Source: Hydrurus foetidus (lineage: Eukaryota). From it: 39,797 nt of DNA. A program made the translations under genes and the position numbers. Location of the stretch: the NCBI GenBank assembly GCA_900617105.1, contig UYFQ01000493.1, positions 1 through 39,797 on the forward strand, read 5' to 3'. Within the stretch, counting starts at the first letter, position 1; the number at the start of each line of letters is the position of its first letter. The notes beneath the pieces were generated by a model. It was not told the origin of the DNA. It worked only from the letters and a program-made list of their open reading frames with translations, and made no database searches. This document shows, piece by piece, positions 6,513 to 39,218 of the stretch.

Positions 6513-6884
6513 TATGCTGTCCACGTAGCTTGGGAGAGCTGTAACGAGGGGCAGGTTTCTTGGATCAACTGCAATGGCTGTTGATCAGTCCACGAGAATC
6601 GCAGACTAGGATGAGCGGCTAACGGCCACAGATCGTCAGCAACAGAAATGTCGCTGGACAGGTGATGGGCTACAGGTAGCCGGTTTGGGTTTGGTGTTTT
6701 GCTTAAGATTAAAGAGAAGTGAAAGGTGCATCGAATTAGCTAGCTGCGAGAGTTGCGAGTTGAAGTATTCGAGAAACCAAAAACTGGTGTGAAATACTTG
6801 TGGTTGTGAGCAACGTGTGCTATGTACGTGCGTACGTGTAAACATGATATATAGTGGAAACTATGAAATAGTGAAACTATAACA
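6513..6884 (-). repeat. Gypsy 5' LTR
   Basis: Direct repeat of 1019-1390. Confidence 0.95.
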
Positions 6885-7417: not shown

Positions 7418-8581
7418 ATGGATGCCAATGGTGAAGTCAATGTCTTGCTCTTAGTAGCTCTTGTACTTCTTGGTGTCTACCAAGTACGCATGCAGCCAAT
7501 TCCACAACATAATTCAGTCCTCACAGGGGATCTCTATTACAGAGAGATAATGGGTACAGTCAATGTCAACCGATTCTTGCAAGTTGTAAGAATGGATAAG
7601 GAGACATTCATCTTGTTGAAAGACGTTCTAACTGGTCCCGGTGAATTACGAAATTCAATGTATATTTGCGCCGGTCAGAAGATAATGATATTGATCCATG
7701 TTCTTCGCGGCCACACGAGCCGAGAGACAGCAGAAAGATTTCAGCACAGTAGCGCGACCATTTCCGAGATAATTCATGAAGTGAGCGACTGCCTCATAAG
7801 TGTTAAACATTTGATATTCGTTCCTGCAAAGGAAGGTGATCCAGTTCCTTCGCAAATAGCGAACTCAGCGAAATTTTCTCCTTTCTTCAACGACTGTATT
7901 GGGGCAATTGATGGGACGCATATTCATGCGGTCATTCCTTTGGCATTGCAGGGTCCATACCGCAATAGAAAAAAATTTATTTCGCAGAACGTACTCGGAG
8001 TTGCAAATTTTGATCTTACTTTCGGATACGCTCTATTTGGATGGGAGGGATCTGCCCACGACAGTAGGGTGTTGGACGACGCTCGAGCGAGGGGATTACC
8101 TTTAATACCTGGAAAGTACTATTTGGGCGATGGTGGATATGGGCTTAGTAAGTATGTTCTCACGCCGTATAGGGGAGTACGTTATCATCTTGTTGAATTC
8201 GACCTTAATGGACATGGTCCCCTGAACAGTAAAGAGCTTTTTAATTTACGTCACTCATCTCTAAGGAATGCGGTAGAAAGACTGTTCGGTGTGAATAAAC
8301 GGAGGTTCCCTGTGCTAGTGAAAATGAGCCCCTATTCATTTGAATTTCAATGCAATATAGTACATTGTTGTTTTTTACTTCATAATTTTGTCCGTATCAA
8401 TCAGTTGTATGAAGATGAATTTTTTGAATTCGATGATAATAATGTACCTGACAATGCAAATGACGACGACGATATTGAGGTTGAAGAAGGTGGTGCAGAA
8501 ATGAATGCTTTGAAAGCATGGCGGAATGGCATCGCTGATGCTATGTGGGCCCAATACCAGATTCACTTAGCTAACTTATGA
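7418..8581 (+). CDS. Harbinger (HARBI1-like, DDE_Tnp_4) transposase
   Basis: Motifs CIGAIDGTHI, GWEGSAHDSRV, YYLGDGGY and FNLRHSSLRNAVERLFG; intact 387-aa ORF. Confidence 0.95.
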   Translation: MDANGEVNVLLLVALVLLGVYQVRMQPIPQHNSVLTGDLYYREIMGTVNVNRFLQVVRMDKETFILLKDVLTGPGELRNSMYICAGQKIMILIHVLRGHTSRETAERFQHSSATISEIIHEVSDCLISVKHLIFVPAKEGDPVPSQIANSAKFSPFFNDCIGAIDGTHIHAVIPLALQGPYRNRKKFISQNVLGVANFDLTFGYALFGWEGSAHDSRVLDDARARGLPLIPGKYYLGDGGYGLSKYVLTPYRGVRYHLVEFDLNGHGPLNSKELFNLRHSSLRNAVERLFGVNKRRFPVLVKMSPYSFEFQCNIVHCCFLLHNFVRINQLYEDEFFEFDDNNVPDNANDDDDIEVEEGGAEMNALKAWRNGIADAMWAQYQIHLANL

Positions 8582-8807: not shown

Positions 8808-10092
8808 TTACATCTTGCTTTTATTTTTTTGGATAAAAATATCACGTTGGTGTTCAGTAAATGACAGAAATTGCTGAACAGCAGAGGGGCTATCAGCAAA
8901 CAATGTGATAAATTCCATCGACTCTAAGTCGGTAAGGCCAAAGCTGAATCGGTCCTCGAAAATTTTGATCACCTTATCGTAGGGAGACATCCGGCTATGA
9001 AAGCCCTCCTGGGAGGCGATGATCTGGCGAATGAGCTCTGGTACAACGCCTTCTGACTTTGTCTTGAGCTTCTTCACGAAGGGACGCACAGTGGAGGGCT
9101 GTGGGACAATCGATGAAAATGTCTTGAGTGCAGATTCTGCGGGAGGTGGTGTCTTTGGGGCCTCCATGACGACGTCGATGGGGACGTCTGCATCATGAGA
9201 ACGTCCAACTGTGATGATAGGGACGTCGTCGGAAGTTTTCGGTGCGATAGAGCTCATGGAACGCTTAACTCCAATCGAAGATGTGGTGTACTGACCAGTT
9301 GCTACATCGCCTTAAAAATACAGGAGTGAGATGGTCGGTCGATCGGTCGGCGAGTAAGTCAGTCAGCAGGTCGGTCGGTCGGTCGGTCGGCCAGTAAATC
9401 AGTCAGCAGGTCGGTCGGTCGGTCGGTCGGTCGGTCGGTCGGTCGGTCGGTCGGTCGGTCGGTCGGTCGGTCGGTCGGTCGGTCGGTCGGTCGGTCAGTT
9501 GGTCAATGTAAGTGGTGTCGAATAAAATAGAACAAGAAAAGTGTGAGGCTTTCTGCAGAGTAGAGTCAAGTTTCTTAAGGAGATATTGAAAGAAACACTC
9601 ACGTCCAAAGAGCTCCAGAAGTTCTTCGTAGAATGCCAGCGGAGCATTTGCGAACTGCACGGCTCCGCTGTGACTAGCATAGTAGGTATTCAACACACTT
9701 GGTGCCGCCGTTACCACGCCTCGAGCATCAACGCCAAATCCGCTTTGAGTTGCGTAATGGTGAAATGTTGTCAAGTTACGCTTCAGAGCGGCGACTTGGG
9801 TCTTCAACATAAGCTTCGTGTATGCCAGCCCTACAGAGTTGAAAGTCGAACTGTCATTAGAGTTGCTGAAAAACTGTGAAGCTAGGCGTTCTTGGCTACA
9901 TGAAAATCAGTGAGACTCTCCTGTAGCGGCGTGAAAGTCCTTCACAACGAGCAACCACTTCTTTTTGTCATTAAGAAGGTCGTTGCACCTCCCACCAGAA
10001 TGCATGGTGAGGGTTTCGATGAGAACTCTCTTGTTGACATCTGTCCAGTTCGCAGTTGGTTCTTTCTTTTTTTGGTCGCCTGTAGAAGTCAT
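8808..10092 (-). CDS. Harbinger Myb/SANT-like DNA-binding protein; three exons 10092-9921, 9830-9603, 9310-8808
   Basis: ANWTDVNKRVLIE..KKKW..TGLAYTKLMLK, SGFG and FYEELLELFGRDVATG. Intron 2 is GTGAGT...AAG and keeps frame; the intron 1 donor reads GAGAGT. Confidence 0.75.
9369..9496. repeat. (GGTC)n microsatellite (a short run plus a ~22-copy run) in intron 2 of the Myb-like gene
   Basis: Directly visible; it produces the spurious PTDR repeats in ORF 9403-9810. Confidence 0.97.
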
Positions 10093-20245: not shown

Positions 20246-21329
20246 TGTTGTGATATCCGGATTAGACTAGGATCTTGTACCCTGTGTGATGTCTGATTGT
20301 TTTCATGCACGGGTGTACGTAGAGTGGTTTACCTATTGTTTCTTAAATTTCAATTAAGAGCACACTAAATTTTTTGGGAATACGGATTTAAGTATCAAAA
20401 TCTGTATTCCGTACTTGTAATATCTGTATTCCGTATACGCCTTATGTTATCGTGTATATAGGCTTCATAGGGCCCATATAAGTCATTAATGACAGTTCGG
20501 GATGAAGCGGCGAGAGCGTTTTAGCAATATTGATGAACATGTTAAGATATTACTTATTACTTAAAGAGAGAATGTTGTTACTATGATGAATCAATCATAA
20601 ATATATCATCGCTAGATGCATTATCATAGAACACTTTTAAGCATTTGACGTCAGATTCGGATGGTTCCTCACAGCAATAACAATTTGAATTTTTTACTCT
20701 ATAGTTGATGAAAATTTTTGATCCTTGTCAATGCCCCATGCCTCATGTTCAGCAGCTTACAGTGCACCAAGGTGTGGCCGTATCTAACCGTTTCCGGTAA
20801 AATATTTTACCGGAAACGAGAAAATTTAGCCGGATCCCGTTAAAGTACCGTATAAGGAAATTCGTAAACGGTTATTTGAATACGGATTTTGAACCATTTC
20901 CGTGTATTTCAGCTAATTAATTCTATTTAAGCACAGGGGTAGCACCCAACATTTAGACCCCCCTGGTTTGAAGCCTTTCCAGTCATCAGAAAAAATAAAA
21001 AAACAGCCTACATTTTTCTTCAGACACAGACGAGTTCAAAAACGTACTCAGAATTAGAGTGTGATAAAAACTCCGGGTCCTAGAATTTTTTGAAATCAGG
21101 TGTGCTTATAAAGGTAAACCACTCTACATTCAGCGATAGCATTGACCGCAACCCTCGCACTCATGTTATGCTACCTAGATGTAATCGACAGCATGTCACT
21201 GTCGTTTAATCCAACTTACCGAATAGAACGTCTTCTTCTCTTTTGAGCAAGCGTTGCTAGCAGTCGGAAGTGCAGGGATTGTTTGGGAACTCGGAAGAAA
21301 TTCCGTGTAAATCGCCCAGATTTCCAACA
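20246..21329 (+). repeat. Copia A 5' LTR, interrupted by an 803-bp MITE
   Basis: 20246-20321 plus 21127-21329 matches 26806-27084. Confidence 0.93.
20322..21124. mobile_element. Non-autonomous TIR element (MITE) with TA TSD, a Tc1/mariner-type target
   Basis: 13-bp TIRs GAGTGGTTTACCT and AGGTAAACCACTC, flanked by a duplicated TA; the empty site is visible in the 3' LTR (GTACGTACATTC); no ORF. Confidence 0.93.
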
Positions 21330-21340
21330 TAAACGACAGT
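21330..21340 (+). promoter_or_regulatory. Copia A PBS position, complementary to its own LTR
   Basis: TAAACGACAGT is the exact reverse complement of LTR 21198-21208 ACTGTCGTTTA; no TGG start. Confidence 0.8.
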
Positions 21341-21384
21341 CATCCTTAGATAGATTAGCTAGAAGTTGCAAAAGTTTTGCAAGG

Positions 21385-24300
21385 ATGAGAGGACGAGGCG
21401 ATGGGAGATTCCAGTCCCGTGGCGGGGGCAGGGGTCGATATGGTAGAGGGCAAGGAGAGCCTCATAAACCCATATCTAAAGGTAGGAAGCCCGAGGTAGG
21501 TGCTTACCTGGATTTGCCGCGAGGACAAGCGGCAGATCCAGAATCTGTGTTGAAATGGCTCGAATGTTTTCGAGTATATATGTACAGTACTTATGAATCA
21601 ACTGTAAAAGAAATAATAGGTATAGACGGGATCCTCTACGACTACGTAGAGCAGGTGGAACCTGAGGACCCGCCTGAAGGAGCAGGACTCGTCGCCATAG
21701 AGAGATGGAAAACTTCACGTAAGAAATATGAAGCTGCATCTGAATTACTTATAAAAGACTGCGCGAAATTGTATGGTGTACTACTAGGCCAAATGTCAGA
21801 GGCGTCGCAGACGCGGGTCAACGAGATGCCCGCGGGAAAGAGAGCTATGGAGGAATGCGATCCTCTAGGTCTGTTGACATGTGTGGTTGCAACACACATG
21901 AGCAACAAAAGGTATGGAGAAACTTATAACATTATTACAGCAGTTAGAAACTTTTATAATAACAAAATGACTCAACACGAAGATCTAGCAGCTTACTATA
22001 GTAGGTGCAGGACTCTGCTATTCGTCAAGAGCGAAGCCTACAGGTTGGCAGACGAAGACGCACCAGAACACACAGATGAGTTCCATGCTGTCTTATTCAT
22101 AACTGCACTGAATTCAAACTATTCAGACTATATTAATACGTTTAAAAATAAGGTTCGGCCATGGCCGCAGACCATGGCTGATGCCAACCAGGACGCGGCC
22201 AACTTCCTCATGGGAAGGCCCGTCCACGGAGGAGCTCCCCCGAACTCGGAGAAGCGAAACGTTTTCGCGGCCAGTCGGGGTGGGAGAGCGGGTTCCGGTG
22301 GGAGAGGCGGCAGAGGCCGCGGAGGCAGTCAGGGAGCTGAGAAGGGAGGGTACGATACCCCCGGCAGCGAGAGTACAGCGAGGGCAGGCACTCCCTATAG
22401 GGATAGGGAGGCCACCCCGCAGAGAGAGAGAGGAGGTGCCGTACAGGAGTACGGTACCCGTTACGGAGCCTGTAACAACTGCGGGGAGGAGGGCCACTAT
22501 GGGTACGAGTGTAAGAAGCCCCCGAGGAAGAACGCACCTGCGCGTCACACTTCCTCGGAAAAGTAAGTCCCGTATATGTTTCTTTACCTGATTCACTAGC
22601 TAAGGATGTAAATGTTCCGTGTGGGGAAACCGGACTGCATGACGTATTTGCAACGTCGACCGGTTACCCTGCGTTTGTGCCATTGTTAGATAAAGCATGC
22701 AGCTTGGAGAATTTTTGTCCACTGAACAGTAAAAATTGTGGGGGTGACCCTGTGATTTTTAGTGCGAATGTATATACACACAGTTCCACATTTACAGATA
22801 GACAAGTGTTGTTAGATACATGTGCAGCAGAGTCAGTATTTTGTAGTGGAGATTTATTTTATAGTATTATGCCGTCCGCTACCCCGATGATTATTAATGG
22901 AGTGAACCCTCAGGGGAACCCTTGATAATCACGGAGTGTGGCGAGACGGACTTCGGAACAGTTTACTACGATAGCAATTGTATAGCGAATATATTATCCT
23001 TCGGTAACATAGTCAGCTCGAGCGAGTCAGTTAGCTATGACAGTGACCAGGATTGTTACAAAGTTAGGATGATTAAGTTAGGACCTGTATATAGATTTGT
23101 CCATGATCAGTCTACGAACATATATCTATGCGACTTAGACAGAAATGTCAGTTACAAGAATGTATCGTTCGATAAATCGATCATGGTCATGACAGTTAAG
23201 GATAAGAAGAAACTGTATACAGCTAGACAAGTTAAGTCAGCAGAGTTAGCTAGAGAGTATCAGAGAAAGTTAGGTTACGCCAGCCCAGGACAGTTAATTA
23301 AATTAATAGGTCAGGGGAAATTAGATAAGAGTGACATAACAGCGCAAGATGTAGTTAGAGCATTAGATATTTTTGGACCAGATTTGGGTTCCCTTAAGGG
23401 GAAAACAACTAGTCACAAAACTGAGTTAGAGGAAGAGATGCCAGTTGTAGATAGGCAGTTCCTGAACCAGGTTATGTACATAGATTTGATGTTTGTGAAC
23501 TCGATACCCTATCTAGTCACAGTTACAAATCCCTTAGAATATGTGATGATATGTAAACTCTCACGTAAAAACAAGTCTTCCTTATGGATGAACTTAGAGA
23601 GCAACATACATCACATTACTAAGTATGGATTTAAGATAACTATGATAAGAATAGACGGAGAGTCGGCAGTTAACACTATAAGTTTTGAGAGTAAGCTAGC
23701 CGCACTAGGTATTATATTAGACAGTACTGGAGCAGGAGAAGCAGTAGCTGTAGTTGAGAGGAAGATCAGAGTGATCAAGGAACGTGTTCGTGCCATCATC
23801 AACACGGTACCTTTTTCACTGAGTGAGCTACTAGAAAGTTGGTTACTTAGATATGTTGTGAACAGATTAAATTTAGTACCAACTAGAAACAGTGTAGCTT
23901 ACGTCAGCCCCAGAGAGAAATTATACGGTAGAAAGATTAACGTAGATAAGGAGTTGAAACACGGTTTCGGTGATTACGTACAAGTACATACCGACTCCGT
24001 GGACAACTCGACTAAACCCAGATCACAGGCAGCAATAGCATTAGTTAGTGCAGGCAACCTAGAAGGTTCATGGTATTATCTGCTGTTAGCTAACTTAAAA
24101 GTAGTAAAGAGGACAAAGGCTACTAGCCTACCATGACAGATGATGTGATCAGTTACCTCGATAAGTTAGCATCTGAGAGGAAATTAAATATGTCAGTGAA
24201 TGTCAAGCAACCTATTTTCGAACAGAGTAATCAAATCCTCGAAGACGATGGAAATGATTACTCCAACGATGAATTTGAGTTGCAGACACCTGACATGATA

Positions 24301-26294
24301 ACACCGTATAGTTACCCTACAGAAGACGAATTTGTGCATCATGAGATAGCAAATAATTTTGACTCATACGATGGCAATTCTGATGTAGCTTACGAATCAG
24401 AGTTCGAACAATTAACAGAATACATACCAAATGATATATACGTTAATGAAGGAGAGGATGTAGTGTATGACGATACACCAACTGACCCCGATGCATTAAT
24501 GAATGATATATTTGGTGTAGACAGTGATGATGAGGTAGATACCCCCACCACAGAAAATAGCAAGTCAGAGGAAATTCTAGATAAACAACCCAGACGTAGT
24601 GCTAGAAACCATCAGCCAGGTAGATGGAACAAGAGATTAGTAGGTTTAAGTATACCTAGCTACAAAGATTCAGTTATGTGTAAGTACATGATGAACATGA
24701 CCGTAACAGAAGGAGTACAGAAATTAGGCGAGATAGCCGTAGATTCCATTAAAAAGAGTTACAACAGATGTGTGATAAGAATGTGTGGGAGGCAGTTCAC
24801 CTCAACAGTCTTAGTTACAATCAGAGGAAAAGTATCATAACCAGCAGTATGTTTTTAAAAGATAAGTATACAGCAGATGGTAAATTTGATAAGCTAAAAT
24901 CTAGACTTGTAGCAGGAGGTCACTTACAAGATAGAAATATATATGATAACGGTTCATCACCAACTGTTAGCACCACTAGCGTATTTATTGTTGCTGCAAT
25001 TGCTGCTAGTGAAAATCGAGCGGTCGCTACGATCGATTTTCCTGGTGCATTCCTCAACAGTGATATGCCACTAGACGGTGACCATGCAGTGCTGATGAGA
25101 CTGAATAAATATTTGACTAACATATTAGTTAGCATTGACAAGTCCTATCAGAAGTATGTAAATGAGAAAGGAACAGTAGTAGTTAAGCTTAAGAAAGCAT
25201 TATATGGATGTGTAGAGTCAGCTAAGTTATGGTACGATAAAATATCATCAGACTTAACACAGTTAGGCTATAAGGTAAATCCATCAGACATATGTGTATT
25301 CAATAGGACTGAGCTAGATTCCACTCAGACTACTTTAGTTATCCATGTTGATGATATGATGATCAGCAGTAGGGATGAGAAGCGTATAGATAGTATAATT
25401 TCAGAGATAGAAAAACTATACCCAGGCTTGACTAAGAGTAGAGGCAGAGTGTTGAATTATATAGGTATGACTTTTAACTTTGAGCAGTTAGGCAGAGTTG
25501 TCATATCCATGGAAGGTTTCATAAAAGACTTGTTAGACGATTGCATAGAGATTGTGGGGGTGTCTAGAACACCTGCCGACGATAATCTATTTAAGATCGA
25601 TCTTAACAGTCCTTTATTGAAAGATAAAGAACGTGAGAGATTCCACTCACTAACAGCTAAGTTGTTATATTTAAGTAAGAGAACCAGACCAGACATACTG
25701 ACATGTATAGCATATCTAACTAAAAGAGTCTTAGAACCTAGAACCGACGACTGGAATAAGTTAGCGCATACTATACGGTATATCAGAGAGACTAGAGCTA
25801 CGCCGCTGACCCTAGAGGTAGATACTCCGGTTAAGGTTATAGCCTATATAGATGCATCATACGCTGTACATGCAGATAAGAAGAGTCACACTGGCTGTAT
25901 TATAACACTAGGTAAGGGAGCAATATATGGTAAGAGTTCCACTCAGAAATTAAATACTACGTCTAGCACAGAGGCAGAACTAGTAGCTATGACTGAAGCA
26001 GGTAATCAGGTTTTATGGACTAGGAATTTCCTTATCCATCAAGAGTATGAGGTAGGTCCAGCTTTAATTTACCAAGATAACCTATCCACAATTCAGTTAG
26101 TTAAGAACGGTAGGTCCAACAGTGAAAGAACTAGACACATAGACATCAAGTTTTTCTTCCTGCATGACCGAATTAAATCAGACCATATTATTGTAACCTA
26201 CAAGAGTACTAAAGAAATGATTGCAGATTTGCTGACCAAGCCACTGCAGGGGAAGCTATTCCAAGAGCTACGTGACCAAGTGCTCAATGTATAA
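21385..26294 (+). pseudogene. Copia A gag-pol, broken into five ORFs by four single-base (-1) shifts
   Basis: RGG-rich Gag with CCHC CNNCGEEGHYGYEC; protease LLDTCA; integrase YIDLMF, RIDGE and VERKIR; RT KSRLVAGG, KALYG and HVDD; RNase H YIDASYA, SSTEAE, QDN and ADLLTK. Confidence 0.9.
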
Positions 26295-26805
26295 AGAAAT
26301 TCAGGGGAGTTATTTATTGATTTTGACTTACCCACTTATAGCGCTTTTTCCAGATAAATTACAAAATAAAAATAAAAATCTGATTTCGCTTTAAATCAAC
26401 ATTTGTTTGATAGGACCGCGAGGGACATCGATGCACCGCTTTTGCGACATCGAATGTCGACGTTTTAGCGGATTTAAGGGCACCAACATCGGTTGGATCG
26501 AACTCGAGACCGGTCACCAGCTGAGGCTTTTTTGACGGTTTAGAAATAGTTTTTCTCGAGTAATACTTACCCGCTAATCCAACCACCCATGTTTTATTTT
26601 ACACCACATCACGACGCAACTTGTCAATATTAAATTATTCCGTGAAAAATATTTTTAAGAAAATTTACTGTTTACCATACCCTAACACTAAGTTCCCTAT
26701 CTGAGTGTTGTGTGAAACATAATGAACAATAACCAATAAGTATACTATATAAGCATATACTAATTAACATATTCACTTATTCAAACAATAACCATCATGG
26801 GGGTG

Positions 26806-27084
26806 TGTTGTGATATCCGGATTAGACTAGGATCTTGTACCCTGTGTGATGTATGATTGTTTTCATGCACGGGTGTACGTACATTCAGCGATAGCATTGA
26901 CCGCAACCCTCGCACTCATGTTATGCTACCTAGATGTAATCGACAGCATGTCACTGTCGTTTAATCCAACTTACCGAATAGAACGTCTTCTTCTCTTTTG
27001 AGCAAGCGTTGCTAGCAGTCGGAAGTGCAGGGATTGTTTGGGAACTCGGAAGAAATTCCGTGTAAATCGCCCAGATTTCCAACA
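26806..27084 (+). repeat. Copia A 3' LTR
   Basis: TG...CA ends; matches the 5' LTR. Confidence 0.95.
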
Positions 27085-27267
27085 GAGGGGGTATTGAGAG
27101 TGGGCGGTAGCTCGCGGACGCCTGCGCAGATTCTCCGCAGAGTGAATGACTGATCCACACCTTCCAGTTCAGGATTGCGGGGTGCAAGCCGGAATGTATG
27201 CGACGTGATTTCAAGTCGATTATTAAGCTGCGTTGGTACATAGGCATAGGGTCCTATATAGGCTTTT

Positions 27268-27540
27268 TGTCAGTGAACTACGTACACTGCTTATTAATCT
27301 CACCACATCCAACAGAATCTCATCTAGCCGTTAACAACCGCCCTCCTGCCAACTGAAAATGACGACCAAAGGCCGACTATGACGACGACCTCAACTGCTC
27401 ATGACGATCTTTCTTTCCTTTCGTTCACTACACATTCGATCCATTCACTCCACTACATTGATGTATACTCACAATCTTTCGCTGTAATACTATAAGCAAT
27501 TCTGATTGTACCGTATAGTTTTCGGACCACAGACCTGACA
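27268..27540 (+). repeat. Copia B 5' LTR
   Basis: Direct repeat of 32586-32858. Confidence 0.96.
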
Positions 27541-27554
27541 ATTGCTTATAGTAT
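27541..27554 (+). promoter_or_regulatory. Copia B PBS position, complementary to its own LTR
   Basis: ATTGCTTATAGTAT is the exact reverse complement of LTR 27487-27500 ATACTATAAGCAAT; no TGG start. Confidence 0.85.
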
Positions 27555-27559
27555 ATATC

Positions 27560-30500
27560 ATGCTCTCGACACCAACCGCCCTCCCAACAACAATCATCCT
27601 CGACCTCCCGAAAGACAATTGGTCAGCATGGCATCAAGCTCTCAAGCTCCTGTGCTTCACCAAGTTCGGCGTCGCCGGCCAGCAAATCCTCTCCGATACG
27701 CTCATCCCTCTTCAGCCGTTCGCCGCCGAGCCGACCAAACTCGATCTCGACATCAACCTCGCTGGCCAACCGATTCCTGGTCAACTCACATACTCCAGGC
27801 GCTCGCTTACAGCCGAGGAAGTTGATCTACCTCTATTAAACCACGCAACCCTACCCCTCAGCCCTCAAGACAATACCAACTTCCGCGACGACCGCAAGAT
27901 TTTTACGGAAGCCAAGCGCCACTTCTCGGACCACGACACGGAGTGTCTCGACCACCTTTACCGCCATCTATCGCCCGCCTCCCACACCTCCATCAAAACT
28001 CATGCGGACTACCCCGCCTACCAACTTCTTCCTATCGGTGCCCGAAGCTACGCCTTCTACACCATGGCACGTAGCATCCACTCCACCGGCAACGCCGCCA
28101 CGAAGCTGCACCGCACGCGCCAATATATGAACATCTCTCAAGCCGACTCTCCCCATGAACTGTACATGGATCATATTACTTCAATGACCGAAACATTCCG
28201 ACTTGACTTCGAGTCTACCGACCACCCTGGACACGTCTCTATCAATGAACTTGCGAGCTTTCTCTACCTCGCCGGCCTGAACCGCGGCAAATTCCGTCGC
28301 GCACTCGACGAACTTCTACAGGACCACCCAACTGGTCGCTTTCCCAACCCTACCGCGTTAATGTCCCAGCTACAAAGCTGGAAGATTGCAAACTCCCTCT
28401 CCTTCACGCGAGATGAAGTCTCCACACAAGGCTCTGCCCTCATCGCCTCACCACCACCCAACCCTACCCAACGCCCCCGCCCTCCTCCCTCCTTCCCTCC
28501 CTTCCCCACTCCATGCACTGGTGCCATTCCGTTCACCTCTCCTCCCACTTCCACCTTACCCTCCTTCCTTCCACACCCTCTCATTCATCCTTCGACTACC
28601 CAGACTCCGCCTGACTCCCTACAGTCACCTCGTCTCATCCACCTACTACCGTCCACCCCTCGCGCTTCTGTCCTACCCCCTCGCCCTCGCCTCCGTTGCA
28701 CAGCCCCCTCTCCACCCTACTCTCTCATACTGGGACAACGCGTGTTCCTTTCACACAGTCCATGATGCATCCCTCCTATACGACCTGCAGCCACTTACAA
28801 GTCCATTCTCGATAGGCGGCGTAGGTGGCTCCTGCGCCGTCACTCACCGCGGGTTCCTCCACTGCCTCCCCGCCACAAACTCTATGAACTTAGCATACCT
28901 CTCACCTACCCTACCCGTCAACCTGTTCAGCCTAAGTCAGATGCAGCGCTGTGGCGCGGTGTATGGTCCTGACCCACTCCGCCCTCGGACCCATGTCTCC
29001 ATCTCGTCCTCATCCTCTGGTCCGTCCCTCGCCTTCGCCACTCTCTCCTCACATAACCTCCTCCCAGTCAACTTCGACGACCTACACACCGCCTCCAAAC
29101 TATCACCACATGCATACCACCCTGCCGCCTTTACGGCCACCTTTCTCACACCCCACATCAACGCCGAGCAGCGGTCCAGAGCTGATGCCGCCGAAGAACT
29201 TCACACCGATCTCTGCCACCCCTCTGACCGCAGCCTTTGCGCCAACCTCTCTACAGGCAAACTTCCCTTCAGTACACTCACCTGCTCTGACGTCACCCTC
29301 AACCGCCAGCTCCGCGGCCCCTGCCCCCACTGTGCAGCGGGCAAGCACCGTAACCCACCCCATCCACCATCCCCCACCGCACCTGCCACTTCCATCGGAG
29401 CTGTCATAAGCTTCGATCCCCAACTTCTACCTGAAGCCTCTCCAGGCCTCCATACCCATGAGATCATCCTAGTCGATGAATTCACTGGCCACTTATCCGT
29501 CGTCGGAGCCTCATCAAAATCTACTCCCGCCATCTTCAAAGCACTCCAACACGTCATCGCCACCACCTACAACTCCTACGAGCACCGAGTCCACATCCTT
29601 CACGGGGATTGTGAAAAGATTAACACTTCTCTAGCTGCTCCCCTTGGCTCCCTAGGGATAACCCTCCACACATCCCCTCCTGGGGAACACGCGGCTCGCG
29701 TTGAGCGATCCATCCTCACCCTCAGACAACTCACCACTGTCACACTTTCTTCACTCCCCTACCACCTACCCCTGAAGTACACCCTATTCCTCCATAAAGC
29801 CATTGCAGCCACCCGCAACACTCTTATCAACACACGCAGCTCACCATCCACTCCTGACGAGCTCCTGCGCGGTACGAAACCCACTCGTCGCCCCTTTCCA
29901 TTCGGCACTTGCTGCATGGTTACACAGCACGCTGACAAGCGCCATTCTCTCGCCCGCGCACATCACACCGCGGCCAACGCTGAACCTAAAGCCGAACTAG
30001 GCGTCTGCATGGGCCCGGACTTAATCACCGGTCGCACCCTCTTCCTCCTCGCCAACGGCTCCATCGTCCCGCGCCGCCCGACCAACCCATTCCCACCTTA
30101 CTTTGTCCCCTTCGACTGGACCCCTAAACAATTCGTCCTCCGTACACCCCTCCCAGACCCGACTCCATCCTTACCCCTCCCCATCGACACCAACACCGTC
30201 ATCCAGCTTCCCGACATATCCCATGTTGAAGCTATCGCCTCCATCACCGGGCACATCCCATCCCCTCTGCCAACCGACCTCATCTACTCTCTCCAGTCAC
30301 CCACTTCCCTGACACCACCTCTTCCAACCCTACCGATACCATCAACACCTCCATCGCTTGAGATCTCACTCACTACTCCAACTCCCCATCAGCTACCCAT
30401 CCTCGAGCACACACAGCTCCACCAGCCACTACCAGTGGCCCAACCAACATCACCACCACATTCTGACTCCACACCCGCCGCTGCAGCATCCCTTACGTCA

Positions 30501-32475
30501 GCACTTACGCCCTCGCCTGCACCAACCCCTTCGTTACCACTACCAACCCCGCACCTAACCATCACCGCGGCAACCCCTCCGAGCCTCGATCCCCCAACAC
30601 GCCGATCATCTCCAACCTCCCATCCACCCAACTTCTGGAAAGGTTGCTACACAACAGCGCAAGCCCCTGCAGCGCACACACCTACAGCTCTCCCAACTGC
30701 ACTCCCACCCAAACCCACTAACGCAGCTCAAAGAAACAGAGTCAACGCGCGATTGGCTGCAATCCGAAACCGCCAACACCGCCTCAACAATCTCCCCGGC
30801 ATCCCCCTAAATAAGCGCCCTACTTCTCTTGAACCCCAACCCCTACCCACTAATCGAGCTGAAATGTCGATCCGTAGGGCATCCCTTGTCCTTCCTACTC
30901 CAGACATAGCAGCCGGTATCGCCAAAGAACTCGGTAAGCACTTTGACACATACGAGTCCCTCAAGCTGATCTCTCGCTGCAGTGTTGAACCAACAGCTAT
31001 ATTCCTTCGCAGTCAAATGCTAATTAAGAAGAAGTCCAAGGGCACTGTTACTGCCCGCTTAGCCATTGACGGCAGCCGCCAACCCCGCGAGTCATACAAC
31101 GACACATACGCCAGAACCTCTGACACCACCAACCGCGCCTTCATTCTCAGTGCCTACCTCGCCGACGCCACCAGGCGCGACTGCCTCAATCATCTGCTAC
31201 TTGGTGATTTCGACTTTCCAGGCGCCTTTCTCCATAACAAACTTACCCGCGATATGACAAATGGTCACCAGCTCAGCGCCACTCTACCCTCAGACCTCCC
31301 TAGCCCATTAGCTGGCAAGCTAGCAGAAATCACGGGTTGCTGTTATGGAATTAAACAAGCAAACCATGAATTCGACAAAGACCTCGTCACTATACTAACC
31401 AAAGCCGGCTTTGTCCCCACCCCCTCCGACCACCACAGCTTCCACAAGCGCTGCCCCATCGACCCCGCCGAATCTCTCACCCTCAACATGCATGTCGACG
31501 ACGGCTGGTACGTCACTTGCTCCCCTACTCTCCGCGACGAACTTAAGACGATCCTACAACAGCGCTACGGACCCATCGCTTTCAACGACGAATCTACCGG
31601 AGTCTGTGGCGTCCGTTTGACAAGACACTCCAATCACTCCTGCACTCTCGACCAAGGAACCCACATCCTCAAGTTCCTTCATCAGTCTGGTATGGATCTC
31701 GTCCCCCCAGCCCTTACACCCTCCACAGCTAATTTCTTCGACCCACCAACTGATGCGACACCTGTTGACCGCACTAGGTTCATGCGAATCAACGGCACCC
31801 TAGTATTCTTGCTCCCCATCCGCCACGATATTAGAAAAGAAGTTATCCACCTCTGCACTCGCAACTCCGCACCCACCCGGTCCGACCTCTCCAAGCAAAT
31901 CCACTTACTTAGGTATCTGAAAAGCTGCCCTAACCTCGGCCCAACTTTCTCAACCAACCCAAATAGGCGTCACTCTACGCGCCGCAGCAGACTCCTCACA
32001 CGCATGCCATCCTGACGGCCACTCGAACACCGCATACACTATCCAAATTGGAACTGTCAATGCACCTTTTGTCGTCCACTCATCCGCAAAGACAGCCAGC
32101 ATCGCTCTCAGCCCTTGTGAAGCGGAGTACCTCGCCCTAGGCCGATGCGCCAAAGATGTCGTCTTCTTCCGCCAATTTGCCTCTGACATTGGGTTCCCTC
32201 AGAGCCTTCCCACCATCATCCTAGAGGACAACCAACCTGCAATCAATCTCACCACCACGAACCAGATCACCCGCAAATCTCGGCACATCGCACTCAAATC
32301 GCATTACATCAGGTGGCTCTACTCAACAAAGCAAATACTACCCCAACACATAAGCACTCATGACATGATAGCGGATGGGCTCACCAAGAGCCTTAGCCCC
32401 TCCAAATTCCTATGGTTCCGCAGCCAACTTATGAATTCACCAGCTACACCACAGAAGCCTCTCGTCAGAATTTAA
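27560..32475 (+). pseudogene. Copia B gag-pol with two frame breaks (~28450-28700 and ~31960)
   Basis: Gag NWSAW; protease WDNACSFH; integrase LHTDLCHP..CPHC, SFD, HGD and VER; RT ARLAIDG, CYGIKQA and HVDD. RNase H is in a shifted frame (ADSSHA, SPCEAEY, EDN, ADGLTK) and ends at TAA 32473-32475. Confidence 0.9.
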
Positions 32476-32585
32476 TACTTTGTAGTCCTTTCTTATTTAT
32501 TTACACTTTCTCCTCACCTTCAAATGACTACACATGTATTATAAGCAATACCCTCATACTCATTCACGTTTAGCTTACCGGCGCA

Positions 32586-32858
32586 TGTCAGTGAACTACA
32601 TACACTGCTTATTAATCTCACCACATCCAACAGAATCTCATCTAGCCGTTAACAACCGCCCTCCCGCCAACTGAAAATGACGACCAAAGGCCGACTATGA
32701 CGACGACCTCAACTGCTCATGACGATCTTTCTTTCCTTTCGTTCACTACACATTCGATCCATTCACTCCACTACATTGATGTATACTCACAATCTTTCGC
32801 TGTAATACTATAAGCAATTCTGATTGTACCGTATAGTTTTCGGACCACAGACCTGACA
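32586..32858 (+). repeat. Copia B 3' LTR
   Basis: Direct repeat of 27268-27540. Confidence 0.96.
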
Positions 32859-33182
32859 CTTTTGATGGAATACCCTATATAGTACCCTATATATAGGAAC
32901 CGGGTGTTCCCTATGTTTTTTAGAAAGTCCTAGTTCGAACACTCAGACTGTTTCCTCGACGCTCCTGTCTCGTATCTCCTGGGTGCAATTCGAATTGAAT
33001 TGCAGCAAACTTGAATACGACGATTCGCAACTTACTACAAGTTTGGTTACAATCTGTCAATCTATACGCCTAGTAAATTTAATCATGCAAAGTCATCTGC
33101 TCGCTACCTTTGTCGCTACCTCTGCCCGAGGGATATCAGCTCGAGCTGCAGTCCAATAAACCGATAATTAGATACTGCTGGC

Positions 33183-33368: not shown

Positions 33369-33989
33369 TCATATGTCAATTGAATTTCATGCACTGTTCG
33401 AACGACACCTCTATTTTCATGTGACATGAATAAAATACTTACGTACACTTTCCGTTTTTTTTCATGTACCGTACTGACCGCGAACGAACATACCATAACC
33501 CTATAGGGTAACCTATATAGGGAAACGGTGAAAAGCCCTATGCATAGGCAATAGGAAAACGAAAAAAACCCTATGTACCAACGCAATTATTAAGTGACGC
33601 CGGGAACTTGTGCACTTGCGGATTGGGTTCTCTGGATCGAAGTTGGATTGGAACCGGTGCGAGCCGCTCCTTTTCAGATCCAAAGTACAAAAGGCTTGTA
33701 TACGAAATTCCTTGCGAAATTTTGAGAGGTAGAGTACAGGACAGAACACAGAGCAGATGTGGATGTAGATGTAGAACACAATACAACATCTGTTTTCAGT
33801 TTTGTGTGCGCACGCATACTATACGGTTCTGTACGCATCTCACTGGGTGCTTGTCGCAAACCTTTCAGTTTGTTGCAACTTGTGGTGCAAGTCTTCGGTG
33901 TATATACTTAGTGTATTTAGATTGAATATCATACAGTTTTAACACGTTTGCTTACTGAATCTTTCAAGTTAAAGAGATTTTTTCAAACC

Positions 33990-35720
33990 ATGAGTCTTAT
34001 TCCTCTTGTTCACCCTGGAATTGGCGGCACAGTTAGCGCTATCGCAGCTCTCACGAGTCTAGCGAATGATCGGCCACCGACAAATGTGATCAATCATGGT
34101 CTACCTGAATACGCTATTCTTTCTGCGGCAGCAACGGCGTCATTGAACATCATCTCCAGCTTCAGTCATGATGCGTATCAAGGAGAGGGTACACTGCGTC
34201 TCAGCTTCAACGCATCACTGACGCCATGGCAGGAAATGGATAAGAAGTCAACCTTCCTGCTTCCTGCTACTGCACTACCAGAGGGTACAAACTTGACGTT
34301 GGGATTTCTTGACAATTCTATGGTCCAATTGTGGCAGTTGCGCGGCAAGCCAACTAGCACAACGACGTACGCGATGCTTGTGGGGCTAGCTGGGCACGGA
34401 CATCAGATGCATGGAGCTCTCGCGATAGGCAGCAGGATTAGCGTTTCCACACCACCATACTTTCTGTTGGCAATGGAAGATCTAGAGAACGTTGCACTGC
34501 AGCACGCTGCCGCTTGGTCTGCGTCAGAAAGGAAGAGGCTGGAGGAAGCACGCGATGAGAGCATTGAGAGCGAGCACGTGGAGAAGCGGATCCGACTCGG
34601 TGTGCAGGACGACTTGGGAGTGCACAGCCAAGGTGAGAAGGTGCACGTGAAGGTGTTGATAGATTTAGAGGGTCGACCACATACGACGAGGGTTAAGACA
34701 GATTTAGCAGAGAGGGAGAAGAACTTGGGTGTGGTGTTCCGAGTGTGCGATGAGAGGAGATGGCAATTCATCATGGGAACTGAGTGTGTACTCCAGGTTG
34801 AGGAATATGCTAGGGTGATTAACGAACAGTCTACGCTACAGATTAGCGAACGAGACCCCGGATTCAAATGCTGCGGTCTGCTCGATAGGGTCTATGGTCT
34901 GAGCTTCTCAGTCGACATTCCGTTGCTCAAGAAACTGCTTACCGGTGATTTCGGTGGTCCCCTTGGGGATGCTTTGGACCTGCAAAAATTTGCTGGGAGG
35001 ACGGTCAAGATTCCAGTCGAGCTCACACCTTGCACACAGCAGAACAGAGCCCTAGTGGTGGCGATCAAGAACATGGAATTGGTATTCGTGATCTTCTACG
35101 GGTCTGCGTTTCACAAGTCGACCAACCGTTTTGTCGACCTGTTGGAGGGACTCCATCGGCCCCTGGAACTCGCACCGTCCGGATTCCTCCTGTACTCATT
35201 GGAGGTAGCGTTGTCAAAATTCTTTAGGACATTGCGCATGGCTACGACCACGTCTAATAAGACTCTCCGAGATGTCAGCAGTCCAACTGCATGCGCTGCT
35301 TATTTGAGCGCGGTGCTCAAGGACTTTGTGAGTGCACTCAACACACAAGAAAAACTGAATGAAGCCATGGCGAGGTACCAGCTGCTCGACTATCGAAGTC
35401 GTCTTGGTAATCAAACCAAGGGAGCCGCTGGAGCTTCCAAGACAGAGGCGAAGGCCAAAACGGCACCCTCTCCCGCAAGCATTGCAGTGACGAAGGCAGT
35501 GTGCGGGGAACATTTTGCGGGGCAACTGAAGGCACAAGATCCAAAAACGTCACGTACATTCTCCTGTACGTACGGCGACGGTTGCCGATTCGCTCACGAT
35601 GACATCAGCAGATGGACTGAAGACAAGAAGTCGGCGACTGCCGCTACCCTCGCGTACAGGTTCCGCCAGCCTTCATTGGATGCTCTCGGTAAGGTCAAAA
35701 ACGGCAAGACCCGTGTATGA
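33990..35720 (+). CDS. ORF1, Gag-like, with a C-terminal CCCH-like finger
   Basis: First ATG at 33990; lies before RT; C-x20-C-x5-C-x3-H (CGEHF...CTYGDGCRFAH). Confidence 0.75.
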   Translation: MSLIPLVHPGIGGTVSAIAALTSLANDRPPTNVINHGLPEYAILSAAATASLNIISSFSHDAYQGEGTLRLSFNASLTPWQEMDKKSTFLLPATALPEGTNLTLGFLDNSMVQLWQLRGKPTSTTTYAMLVGLAGHGHQMHGALAIGSRISVSTPPYFLLAMEDLENVALQHAAAWSASERKRLEEARDESIESEHVEKRIRLGVQDDLGVHSQGEKVHVKVLIDLEGRPHTTRVKTDLAEREKNLGVVFRVCDERRWQFIMGTECVLQVEEYARVINEQSTLQISERDPGFKCCGLLDRVYGLSFSVDIPLLKKLLTGDFGGPLGDALDLQKFAGRTVKIPVELTPCTQQNRALVVAIKNMELVFVIFYGSAFHKSTNRFVDLLEGLHRPLELAPSGFLLYSLEVALSKFFRTLRMATTTSNKTLRDVSSPTACAAYLSAVLKDFVSALNTQEKLNEAMARYQLLDYRSRLGNQTKGAAGASKTEAKAKTAPSPASIAVTKAVCGEHFAGQLKAQDPKTSRTFSCTYGDGCRFAHDDISRWTEDKKSATAATLAYRFRQPSLDALGKVKNGKTRV

Positions 35721-37823
35721 CTACCTGAGGAGAGTAAAGAGAAACTCAACAGGGTCAGAGAGGTGCTACCCATCATCCCGCTAGTGCTGATAGATGAGAT
35801 CAGTAGCATGGCGGATTCATATTTTTCTCGCTCAAGTCGGCTACCTCGCGCATATCTCGAAGCAGTGGTCAGCGAGGCAATCGCAGCATCGGATGAGCAG
35901 TATGGAATCGATGCAGCGGTAGCATGGGCAGGTGGCTACACCTTCCCGAGAGCCATGTTGTTGAGCGACATGAAGTGTTTTCAGGCTGCCCAACTGGACC
36001 TAGTGGTGATGGTACGCCGGAGATTGAAAATCTTATCCGGAGACAGGCTTAGTAGCGCGAGAGTGGAGCGCCTAAGGTCAGACAATCCCGAGAGGGACCT
36101 CCTTCATGACCTAGCGATTGGCATGCGAGTACCCCTGCCGACTGACTTTGTGCCGAACGGTACCCAACCATCAGCAGCCTTGAGGAGTACGTACCTGAAG
36201 GTAGACACCGCAGTGAATAAGATGCTTGGCAGTATTGTGGAACAGAGGTTGGCATTCCTATTACCAAAGGATTTAGCCGTACAATGCATACCCAACCTGC
36301 ATCTCGGAGCTGCACATTGGAACCCTAGTGGGCGGCCAATAGGAGACCTCACCTACGTTACCGGGACTCCTCTGAACAGTGAAGAAACCACCACAGCTGC
36401 AGCAGAGCGATATGGTGTGATCAAGCACCCGACTATCGCAGAGATAGTGCGCATGATGATGTCGTTTTGGGAGAAGGCTGTGGAGTCGAACGCAGCAGTG
36501 CAGTGGAGTCATCTACGTCTTTGGAAGATGGACCTGAAAGGAGCGTACACTCTTCTTTCGTTTCGTCCTGAGGATGCAGGCTTATTCGGTATGGAGATCA
36601 CCGGCGGCCTAGTCTACTTACAGATAGCTGGTATATTTGGATGGGCATGCACGCCGGCTGCCTTCCAAACTATCACTCGAGCCATCAAATGGGAGCTCTC
36701 GCACAGTCTGAGAAGCTCCATTGAGATGTACGTTGATGACATCATCGGCGTATGCTTCGAAGAAGATCTCGCGGAAGATCTCGTACGTGCCAGGGGAGTA
36801 TGTACGGACCTACTCGGATCCTCGGCAGTGGCAGATGATAAGACAGAGTGGGGAAGGCGATTGGATATCATTGGCTTCACGGTCGATCTAGACCTAATGA
36901 GTGTCACTATCTCGCGAAAGAATTTTCTTAACACCCTATACGGCTTCATGTCGATCGACCTGGAAGCATCTATTTCACTGCGTATGGTTCAAAGGCTAGC
37001 ATCGTGGGGGAGTAGATATGGGTCAATATGTCGAGCCATGCGGCCATTTAGTGCGGCCCTCCATAGAATGGCCGCAGGGAGAACCACACGCATGTCAACT
37101 TTTCTCGTGAACAGTGAGGCGAAGTTAGCTATCCGGCTGTGGCGCACCATGTTGGTGCTTGTACGTTTCGATGAGGCGAGGTACAGCAGGCCTATGCAGT
37201 CGTTTGTCAAAACGATGCCGGAGTACATCATCGAGTTTGATGCCTCCCTATCCGGAGTGGGTATTCTGTGGTATAAAAGAGTCAATGGCGCTGAGTTGTG
37301 TCTGGGTGGCAGCGCAGTGAGTCTCCGCGGTTTAAGTTTCGAGGGCGACTCCTCCTATCAGAATCTCTGCGAATTCATTGGCGCGATGCTTGGGCTGATC
37401 GGCTTAAGCAAACTCGGTATCAGAGGAGTAGACGTAACGATGAGGGGAGACAGCATTTCTGCCCTCACGTGGGTGAGTACGGAGAGATATAGAGGCGTGA
37501 ATGTCTCGAACGCCTCCATGGTGTTTACTATGCTCTGTATTAACCAAGAGCTAATCGTCAAGGAGTCTGTACACATACCTGGCAGTGATAATGGCAGATG
37601 TGACGCACTCTCTCGTCTGTGGGAGTCGGGGAAGACTATGAAAGAAGTGATGACGAGCATCGGACTTGAGAATAGCAGAGAGGTGGACCTCCAAGGTTGT
37701 CAGCATGTTCAAAACCTCCTCGCAAGTTGCGATCCGTCCATTAAATTTAATGCAGAAGCGGATTTCCTCGGTTTCTGGGGGGGCGTCAGGGACGCTTTGG
37801 AGGGGGTGGTCAACGGAGTGTAG
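35721..37823 (+). CDS. ORF2, DIRS-type reverse transcriptase plus RNase H, in frame with ORF1
   Basis: RT LWKMDLKGAY, FGWACTP, YVDD and IIGF; RNase H FDASLSGVG, QNLCE, RGDS and HIPGSDNGRCDALSR. Confidence 0.93.
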   Translation, partial: LPEESKEKLNRVREVLPIIPLVLIDEISSMADSYFSRSSRLPRAYLEAVVSEAIAASDEQYGIDAAVAWAGGYTFPRAMLLSDMKCFQAAQLDLVVMVRRRLKILSGDRLSSARVERLRSDNPERDLLHDLAIGMRVPLPTDFVPNGTQPSAALRSTYLKVDTAVNKMLGSIVEQRLAFLLPKDLAVQCIPNLHLGAAHWNPSGRPIGDLTYVTGTPLNSEETTTAAAERYGVIKHPTIAEIVRMMMSFWEKAVESNAAVQWSHLRLWKMDLKGAYTLLSFRPEDAGLFGMEITGGLVYLQIAGIFGWACTPAAFQTITRAIKWELSHSLRSSIEMYVDDIIGVCFEEDLAEDLVRARGVCTDLLGSSAVADDKTEWGRRLDIIGFTVDLDLMSVTISRKNFLNTLYGFMSIDLEASISLRMVQRLASWGSRYGSICRAMRPFSAALHRMAAGRTTRMSTFLVNSEAKLAIRLWRTMLVLVRFDEARYSRPMQSFVKTMPEYIIEFDASLSGVGILWYKRVNGAELCLGGSAVSLRGLSFEGDSSYQNLCEFIGAMLGLIGLSKLGIRGVDVTMRGDSISALTWVSTERYRGVNVSNASMVFTMLCINQELIVKESVHIPGSDNGRCDALSRLWESGKTMKEVMTSIGLENSREVDLQGCQHVQNLLASCDPSIKFNAEADFLGFWGGVRDALEGVVNGV

Positions 37824-37925
37824 GGTAGGGGGATAGGGAGGGATGGGATGAAGGGGGATAGAAAGGGATGGGATGAGGGGTGGAAGGGGATGGGAGAGGG
37901 TGAAAGAAGTAGGGATGAAGGCATA
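37822..37925 (+). repeat. Purine/G-run tract with G-quadruplex potential
   Basis: About ten runs of three or more G separated by short spacers, directly after the RT stop codon. Confidence 0.8.
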
Positions 37926-37980
37926 GGAGACGCTGTAATTGATGTAGCCTCATTACCACTCGATGTGGGTGGGGAACAAG

Positions 37981-38020
37981 TACTAACAGTTACATTATCC
38001 CTACACTCTGTTTGAAACAG
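37981..38020 (+). promoter_or_regulatory. Branch point and 3' splice site preceding the YR exon
   Basis: TACTAAC at 37981-37987, a pyrimidine-rich stretch, then CAG| ending at 38020. Confidence 0.75.
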
Positions 38021-39218
38021 GTCACTCAGGACTTACGGCCGAGGGTAAGGCTGTACTAGGGGACTTCCTGAGGAAGTCGGTCACAACGGGAACAGCGAAA
38101 ACATACGATGGTCAGTGGCATGGGTGGTGCGAATTCATCGACAACATAGAATGGGGGAAGGACCCATACATGAGAGAGGAGCGTGAGGATGATAAGGCGG
38201 CGCTAGTGGCTTTGTACCTACAGAGTCGGTACGATAAGGGAGCCCGTGGCAAGAGTGCGACATCAGTTACAGCTGGTCTGCGGCACTCCTTCATGACAGC
38301 ACTTCTGCCATGTCAATTCCTGGACTCACCTATTATTGTAGCAGCTCGGACGGCATGCAGACTGAGCACGACAGAGCTACGGGAGAAAAGGAACGAGGGT
38401 GCGAGTACCAGTGTGAAGCTCCTCTATGTGAGAGCATTCTGATCAGGATGAGGCACCGCTTATGGGTGAGTTGTGGGTGGGACCGGGGGGGGATAGATCA
38501 AAAGATGATCTACCTGGCAGCGATGTGGGCGTACAATATGGACGCACGGGTGAGTGAGTACACGGCACCGGAGAGAGGGGGCGAGGACCACTGTGTACGA
38601 GTGGGCGACCTAGATTTCGAGATGGTGTGTGGGGAGAGAAAGAGAGGGGGGCAGATGCTGCCTGGGTCAGAGTCAGTAGTCGCCTGCTGGGTGAAGGCGT
38701 CATCCCAGAAGACGGGCTCATTTATGAAAATGAAACTGATAGGGAGAAGGACCCCGGAAGAGGGTCAGTTCCTGGATGACCTCATAAGCTGGGTGACTCA
38801 CTCAGGGGTGACTGAAGCTGACAGACTCTTTTCTCGGTACACTGAGCTTAAATGCGGAAGAAGGTCGAAGAAAGAGCTCACTGCGAGGATGATAAGGGAC
38901 CAGATAAAGGAGACGTGCGCACTGGAGAACCTACCAGCTGAGCATTTCTCAAGTCACTCATTGCGCAAGGCCGCTACGACTCACATGCGGGCGCTTGGAG
39001 CATCGGAGGAGGATATGAGAGATAGAGGAGGGTATGCATCCGGATCGAGGGTGATGACATACACCTATGACTACTCGTCCGCGGGCCATGGGCCACTCTC
39101 CTCGAATGCACTAAACGGAGGTGCCCGCCCTGATGTTCAAGACATCCTGCGGTTTATACCACAAACAAGGAACACGGACAGGGCTCACCTTGGACTGTTG
39201 GGTGAAGGTGATCGCTAA
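38021..39218 (+). CDS. ORF3, tyrosine recombinase (no start codon of its own; one -1 shift at ~38420)
   Basis: N-terminal domain SVTTGTAKTYDGQWHGWCEF; catalytic motifs ARVSEY, SQKT, SHSLRK and RGGY..MTYTY. Confidence 0.88.

What the first reader, a model, noticed from the sequence alone, without database searches (positions are those of the whole stretch)
27487..27554. Copia B has no tRNA PBS; a 14-nt perfect complement of its own LTR sits there instead (candidate self-priming Copia)
Seen: the bases directly after the 5' LTR (ATTGCTTATAGTAT, 27541-27554) lack the TGG that pairs with tRNA CCA. They are the exact reverse complement of LTR 27487-27500, or 15 nt if the terminal A is counted. Known: Schizosaccharomyces pombe Tf1 and related Ty3/Gypsy elements prime from the first 11 nt of their own transcript annealed to the PBS, whereas characterised Copia elements use tRNAs or tRNA fragments. 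Inference: tRNA-independent self-priming in a Copia lineage. I do not know a documented example, but I could not search the literature.
Basis: partly seen in the sequence, partly recalled or inferred. Interest (0 to 1): 0.9.

Follow-up and report, generated by a model that had tools for sequence, protein, structure and literature searches.

The report
Self-priming Copia clade in freshwater protists
This jumping gene and its distant relatives have no site for a borrowed tRNA; the bases right after the left repeat pair with a piece of that repeat and change in step with it, so the group likely starts copying itself with its own RNA, as shown for yeast Tf1 and already predicted for one plant Copia lineage.

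Summary
27541-27554 is the exact complement of LTR 27487-27500, and no shuffle of 5000 exceeded 9 nt. LTR ends are fixed by a 5-bp TSD and empty sites. The pairing is a clade trait: 16 of 17 elements (31-52% RT identity) pair at least 8 nt from the first base after the LTR, and the 17th has one G-U. Eight different cores occur, with 13 inferred changes all matched on the other arm. Self-priming is likely (about 0.8), but the transcription start is untested. Pairing extends about 26 nt upstream and no Tf1 pretzel was found, so the primer could be longer than 14 nt or come from the 3' LTR. The clade also lacks a polypurine tract. Neighbouring Copia A shows an 11-nt version. The novelty claim is wrong: self-priming is already predicted for plant TAR Copia (PMC6317226), and this scan noted it repeatedly in diatom Copia on other DNA. 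Verdict: a new variant of a known kind.

The parts
27263..27267 (+). Target-site duplication CTTTT (left copy; right copy 32859-32863)
   Evidence: empty-site joint in 4 of 4 runs
27268..27540 (+). 5' LTR, 273 bp, TG...CA
27483..27487 (+). TGTAA; its TAA (27485-27487) lies 15-18 nt before the motif's 3' end in 11 of 13 dereplicated elements. Poly(A) signal or start-site element, undecided
   Evidence: PMC6413133 passages
27487..27500 (+). LTR motif, predicted self-primer; conserved core 27493-27500
27501..27540 (+). 40-nt loop between motif and LTR end; would be the template of minus strong-stop DNA (14-43 nt in relatives, 92 in L021)
27541..27554 (+). Primer-site position, exact complement of the LTR motif; conserved core 27541-27548
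27560..28765 (+). gag reading frame (out of frame with pol in this copy; other copies carry an extra base near 28655-28658)
28362..32015 (+). pol frame: protease motif 28731, integrase HHCC/DDE 29202-29694, RT motifs 31053-31491
31921..32475 (+). RNase H frame (shifted in this copy; other copies carry 11 more bases at 31958)
32540..32549 (+). 10-nt partial third copy of the motif before the 3' LTR; absent in 16 of 16 relatives, probably chance
32570..32585 (+). Conserved non-purine motif where the polypurine tract should be
32586..32858 (+). 3' LTR; second copy of the motif at 32805-32818
21198..21208 (+). Copia A (separate element): LTR motif complementary to its own primer-site position
21330..21340 (+). 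Copia A primer-site position, 11-nt complement of 21198-21208, no TGG

Best explanation
This is a young copy of a divergent Ty1/Copia clade whose primer site pairs with a motif in its own LTR, and the clade likely primes minus-strand DNA synthesis with that piece of its own RNA instead of a tRNA. Shown: an 8-bp duplex (14 bp here) starts at the first base after the LTR and covaries across the clade, with weaker pairing out to about 26 nt. Inferred, by analogy with Tf1: the transcript starts roughly 15-30 nt before 27500, its 5' end folds onto the primer site, and it is cut after 27500, probably by the element's RNase H. The new 3' end copies 27540 back to 27501 and the short cDNA jumps to the 3' LTR. 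Plus-strand copying of the retained primer would rewrite the primer site from the LTR motif, which would explain the near-perfect covariation.
For: 16 of 17 elements have at least 8 perfect pairs from base +1 and the 17th (L012) has 7 plus one G-U. Only 1 of 285 other CA sites in the same regions reaches 8. In 13 dereplicated elements 103 of 104 core pairs are Watson-Crick, against a permutation mean of 78.8 and a maximum of 99 in 100,000. Among 8 distinct cores each pairs 8-14 nt with its own LTR and 2-6 nt with the others. On the RT tree, 13 minimum changes in the primer site all fall with the matching LTR change. The duplex always abuts the LTR end, where a primer's 3' end must sit. None of 8 cores fits a tRNA half ending at positions 38-41 with both U33 and purine 37 (the invariants are recalled). 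A distant Copia from the same scan (L023/L024) has a TGG-type site. Tf1 mechanism and primer copying: PMC7175516 and PMC11042837 passages.
Against: No start site, poly(A) site or primer was observed. Extra pairing reaches about 10 nt beyond the conserved TAA (P = 0.003), longer than a Tf1-type primer. The Tf1 pretzel pairing is absent (P = 0.66) and the loop is not consistently structured (mean z -0.75). L004, L007 and L017 leave only 14-18 nt between motif and LTR end, which is very little homology for the first strand transfer. The 8-bp core alone is weak (-4 to -9.5 kcal/mol). In L033 the complement is not in the 46 nt of LTR held, which is inconclusive. LTR ends of relatives were called by eye from TG/CA inverted ends on contigs holding one LTR. 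The host tRNA set was not available.
Confidence: 0.6

Rival explanations
1. Self-priming from the far end. The 3' LTR copy of the motif (32805-32818), on the same or a second RNA, pairs with the primer site. The conserved TAA/TGTAA would be the poly(A) signal and would put the RNA's 3' end at or near the motif's end.
For: TAA lies 15-18 nt before the motif's end in 11 of 13 elements, against 8% background. UAA (diatoms) and UGUAA (Ochromonas) are reported poly(A) signals, with such signals placed about -30 to -10 (PMC6413133 passages). The motif ends in AA in 15 of 17. Pairing extends to about -26. It would avoid the 14-nt transfer problem.
Against: I found no precedent in the papers read. If the 5' copy is transcribed it should fold first. 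The window copy has T-A instead of A-T at the first pair, which fits a templated end better than a poly(A) end. A poly(A) tail would have to be removed.
Confidence: 0.2
2. The duplex is a structural U5-leader stem (packaging, translation or dimer control) and some other RNA primes.
For: Pairing continues past the core as an imperfect long stem. Fungal GalEa elements have a conserved hairpin at the primer site with no known primer (PMC5445492 section 10).
Against: A structural stem need not start at base +1 in 17 of 17 elements, nor stay 103 of 104 Watson-Crick. No conserved sequence is left to bind an outside primer, since 8 different cores occur.
Confidence: 0.13
3. A host tRNA half or other small RNA primes, and the LTR match is secondary.
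For: Half-tRNA priming is known in Copia lineages without a 3'-end TGG site (Osser, Bryco, Bianca; PMC6317226). The host tRNAs could not be searched (no genome; none in the window).
Against: Each of 8 cores would need its own tRNA, and the LTR would still have to follow each change. 0 of 8 cores satisfy U33 and R37 together for ends 38-41.
Confidence: 0.05
4. A chance inverted repeat or an assembly artefact.
For: The region is AT-rich.
Against: Shuffles, conservation across 17 elements, and DNA contigs of other runs that cross the LTR/leader junction (table 8).
Confidence: 0.01

Closest known systems
Plant Ty1/copia TAR lineage (Houba, Osr-1), predicted self-priming (PMC6317226)
   Same: Copia superfamily; the primer site is complementary to the element's own 5' LTR; prediction from sequence only.
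   Different: TAR is a land-plant lineage, mostly single-ORF, scored at 10 bp or more. Here the conserved core is 8 bp (only 2 of 17 reach 10), gag ends in an in-frame TGA in 12 of 12 relatives, and the RT scores below the RVT_2 cut-off. No TAR sequence was available for a tree.
Tf1/Tf2 and the Tf1/sushi group (Ty3/Gypsy), experimentally self-primed (PMC7175516, PMC10085805 passages)
   Same: No tRNA site; LTR-derived sequence pairs from the first base after CA.
   Different: Other superfamily. Tf1 uses the first 11 bases plus a pretzel with LTR sequence downstream of the primer. Here the extra pairing is upstream of the core and the pretzel test fails. Tf1 has a polypurine tract; this clade has none.
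Fungal GalEa Copia with Conserved Hairpin Site (PMC5445492)
   Same: Copia without a tRNA site; conserved base pairing at the primer-site position.
   Different: The GalEa site is a palindrome pairing with a partner 12-41 bp downstream, and the authors found no LTR complement. Here the partner is upstream, inside the LTR.
Diatom CoDi Copia lineages (PMC2806351, PMC2774666)
   Same: Divergent Copia of protists. The RT motifs of Copia A and B resemble CoDi motifs as I recall them (a lead, not tested).
   Different: Neither paper discusses the primer site in its main text. No CoDi reference was aligned.

Membership tests
Ty1/Copia | Two LTRs with TG...CA ends and a 5-bp TSD | tested here: met
Ty1/Copia | Domain order protease-integrase-RT-RNase H | tested here: met
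   motif positions 28731, 29202-29694, 31053-31491, 31987-32371 (motif identities recalled)
Ty1/Copia | RT of the RVT_2 type | tested here: met
   weak alone (E 0.0014, under cut-off); 15 of 21 family members hit RVT_2 at E up to 0.1; profile match to the RVT_2-positive Copia A family, probability 100
Ty1/Copia | tRNA or half-tRNA primer site (usual, not universal) | tested here: not met
   no TGG in 17 of 17; half-tRNA rule fails for 8 of 8 cores; host tRNAs not searched
Ty1/Copia | Polypurine tract before the 3' LTR (usual) | tested here: not met
   16 of 16 elements: longest purine run 1-5 nt, purine share 0.33-0.58
Tf1/sushi group | Gypsy domain order (integrase last) | tested here: not met
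Tf1/sushi group | Primer site complementary to own LTR from the first base after CA | tested here: met
Tf1/sushi group | Primer is the 5' end of the transcript, released by RNase H | not testable with these tools
   no raw RNA reads; contigs cannot show starts
Tf1/sushi group | Pretzel: leader pairs with LTR sequence downstream of the primer | tested here: not met
   own -4.88 vs cross -5.13 kcal/mol, P 0.66
TAR lineage | At least 10 bp of LTR complement starting 0-5 bp after the LTR | tested here: inconclusive
   met by the window copy (14) and L017 (12), not by 15 of 17
TAR lineage | Single gag-pol ORF (79% of TAR) | tested here: not met
   in-frame TGA after gag in 12 of 12 relatives checked; single-ORF members exist further out (L021)
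TAR lineage | RT/RH/INT phylogeny within TAR | not tested
   no TAR reference sequence from any tool; the 23 hits are all unnamed environmental proteins
Fungal GalEa (CHS) | Palindromic 9-mer pairing with a partner 12-41 bp downstream | tested here: not met
   partner lies upstream in the LTR
CoDi lineages | RT phylogeny within CoDiI or CoDiII | not tested
   no reference sequence available

The most novel reading that the evidence does not exclude
A Copia clade that has dropped both canonical primers. The minus strand is primed by the RNA's own 3' end, placed by a poly(A) signal 15-18 nt upstream and held by a two-part duplex, and the plus strand by a conserved non-purine element. Neither is described in the papers I searched.
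Probability: 0.17. Interest if true: 0.82.

Novelty: new variant of a known kind. Interest (0 to 1): 0.55.

Why it matters
Self-priming is proven only in Tf1-type Gypsy elements and predicted for one plant Copia lineage. Covariation across a clade with 31-52% RT identity is strong comparative evidence that it also runs in protist Copia, and two deeply separated Copia families in one 40-kb window show it. The published screen (10 bp or more) would miss 15 of 17 members, so self-priming may be undercounted. The clade offers natural extremes for testing reverse-transcription rules: an 8-bp core, 14-nt strong-stop templates and no polypurine tract. It also bears on the proposal that hairpin priming came before tRNA priming in LTR elements (PMC3601003 passage).

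Tried and rejected
No whole genome is held, so host tRNAs and other copies could not be searched; none are in the window. No RNA holder listed. Run X19 (kind unknown) gives a contig that starts at 27484 and crosses the LTR end, but DNA runs break at the same branch points and X8 has a similar depth profile, so it says nothing on the start site. Viral collection: no relatives in 3 scans. Solved structures: 0 hits. Host identity: the lipocalin search gave only unnamed environmental proteins and one marine-protist transcriptome hit; the Atlas did not answer. 'Freshwater protist' is inferred from introns, gene content and run habitats. Copia A relatives could not be fetched as DNA, so its covariation is untested. 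The third motif copy at 32540 is not conserved. A pairing between the PPT-position motif and the whole LTR fails (P 0.96). A narrower window gave P 0.02, post hoc and 1 of 10 windows, kept as a lead only. A hairpin across the PPT/LTR junction is not consistent. Rows dropped before counts: L005 and L010 (same junction as L004, L009); L002, L006, L020, L032 (no junction); L033 (truncated); L022-L031 and L034 (distant). L007, L015, L016 and L018 were dropped as near-duplicates for the 13-row tests. The three named hits are multi-stretch arthropod Copia proteins and were not taken as clade members. Four primary Tf1 papers were not held and Capy 2005 was seen only as a reference. Additional file 1 of PMC6317226, which would give TAR primer positions, was too large to read.

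Full report
1. Observation. The element spans 27268-32858 with 273-bp LTRs that differ at 2 positions and a CTTTT target-site duplication. Four of four runs laid show the empty site joined across it. The 14 bases after the 5' LTR are the exact complement of LTR 27487-27500. In 5000 dinucleotide shuffles of the LTR the longest such run was 9, and 3 of 39,477 window positions reach 14. The stretch folds as a hairpin with z = -3.6.

2. What the element is. Protease, integrase, RT and RNase H motifs lie in Copia order. The RT is so divergent that the long ORF has no Pfam hit at E 0.001 and the RT part scores only E 0.0014 to RVT_2, though 15 of 21 family members hit it at E up to 0.1. The family aligns with the RVT_2-positive Copia A family at probability 100. 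This copy has two frameshifts relative to other copies, so it probably makes no full protein, or the assembly errs. The 23 protein hits are all unnamed environmental sequences, and a profile finds 210 clusters at E up to 1e-30. Holders are freshwater, sediment, biofilm and air metagenomes plus one coded organism. The host is an unidentified eukaryote, inferred to be a freshwater protist.

3. Relatives. One metagenome scan gave 31 loci, 21 of them near relatives at 31-52% RT identity. Sixteen hold a distinct LTR/leader junction. With the window copy, 16 of 17 pair at least 8 bases perfectly from the first base after the LTR; L012 has one G-U. Only 1 of 285 other CA sites does so. Eight different cores occur, and each pairs 8-14 nt with its own LTR but 2-6 nt with the others. 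In 13 dereplicated elements 103 of 104 core pairs are Watson-Crick; permutation gives a mean of 78.8 and a maximum of 99 in 100,000. On the RT tree, where the clade has 100/100 support on a long branch, 13 minimum substitutions in the primer site all fall with the complementary LTR change, in 6 of 8 columns. Perfect pairing mostly stops at base 9, so the 14-nt length is particular to this family. A distant Copia from the same scan has a TGG-type site. Caveats: LTR ends of relatives were called by eye, and L033 has a clade-type site whose complement is not in the 46 nt of LTR held.

4. Features that do not fit Tf1. Weaker pairing continues upstream: LTR -22 to -11 with leader +11 to +24 gives -3.78 against -1.81 kcal/mol for cross pairs, reached in 0 of 20,000 permutations. 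It holds for 10 nt beyond a conserved TAA (P 0.003) and not further (P 0.49). The Tf1 pretzel, described in PMC10085805 (passage), is not seen (P 0.66). TAA sits 15-18 nt before the motif's end in 11 of 13 elements against 8% background. It may be a poly(A) signal, as UAA and UGUAA are in diatoms and Ochromonas (PMC6413133 passages), or a start-site element. Three elements leave only 14-18 nt between motif and LTR end. None of 16 elements has a polypurine tract; a conserved non-purine motif takes its place.

5. Mechanism. Shown: the covarying duplex abuts the LTR end, and no fixed sequence is left for an outside primer. Inferred: an LTR-derived RNA end primes the minus strand (about 0.8 in all). 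The most likely source is the 5' copy cut after 27500, by analogy with Tf1, where RNase H cuts between bases 11 and 12 (PMC7175516 passage) and the primer is copied into cDNA (PMC11042837 passage); I put this at 0.6. The 3' copy is the main rival (0.2). A structural stem with another primer gets 0.13 and a tRNA half 0.05; none of 8 cores fits the recalled U33/R37 rule, but the host tRNAs were not searched. The start site could not be tested.

6. A second case. Copia A in the same window also lacks TGG. Its first 11 bases after the LTR are complementary to 21198-21208 of its own LTR (maximum 9 in 5000 shuffles). It sits apart from Copia B on the tree. Its covariation is untested.

7. Novelty. 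PMC6317226 (passages, section 10 and supplement 5) predicts self-priming for 89% of 203 TAR Copia elements, so a self-priming Copia is not new as a prediction. Nine literature searches listed no paper on self-priming in protist Copia or on this clade; most subscription papers are not covered. The two CoDi papers searched do not discuss the primer site. Earlier notes of this scan report the same idea for diatom and other Copia on other DNA; neither RT matched any of their windows by sequence. The element is a Copia, works like Tf1 in outline, and is not a member of Tf1/sushi. Membership in TAR or CoDi was not tested by tree. Verdict: new variant of a known kind, interest 0.55.

Noticed in passing
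window 20246-27084 (Copia A): Second Copia with an 11-nt LTR-complementary primer site, motif 121 nt from the LTR end, a G-rich tract before its 3' LTR and a zinc knuckle; 2012 protein relatives.
   Followed up: partly
window about 20322-21124: An insertion of about 800 bp with terminal inverted repeats splits Copia A's 5' LTR; looks like a non-autonomous DNA transposon.
   Followed up: no
window about 6470-6515, minus strand (Gypsy, LTRs about 6513-6884 and 1019-1390): This Gypsy also lacks TGG. A 12-bp palindrome followed by a hairpin sits right after the LTR, recalling the GalEa hairpin site. All three LTR elements in the window lack a tRNA 3'-end site.
   Followed up: partly
window 32570-32585; L001-L021 before the LTR: Conserved non-purine motif in place of the polypurine tract; part of it is weakly complementary to the LTR's TAA element (P 0.02, post hoc).
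   Followed up: partly
L003, L004, L007-L009, L011-L014, L016-L018, end of gag: Gag and pol are in frame and separated by a single TGA in 12 of 12, which suggests stop-codon read-through.
   Followed up: no
window 33921-39218: Gag-like, RT/RNase H-like and tyrosine-recombinase frames; looks like a DIRS-type element.
   Followed up: no
window 7412-8581 and 9293-9524: DDE_Tnp_4 (Harbinger-type) transposase frame and a GGTC tandem array.
   Followed up: no
L032, L033, L034: Copia contigs inside three bacterial metagenome-assembled genomes, probably mis-binned eukaryotic DNA.
   Followed up: no
window 27484-27555: Contig branch points suggest that subfamilies about 87% alike elsewhere are identical over this block, from the TAA element to the end of the primer site; 135 variant rows were not shown.
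   Followed up: partly
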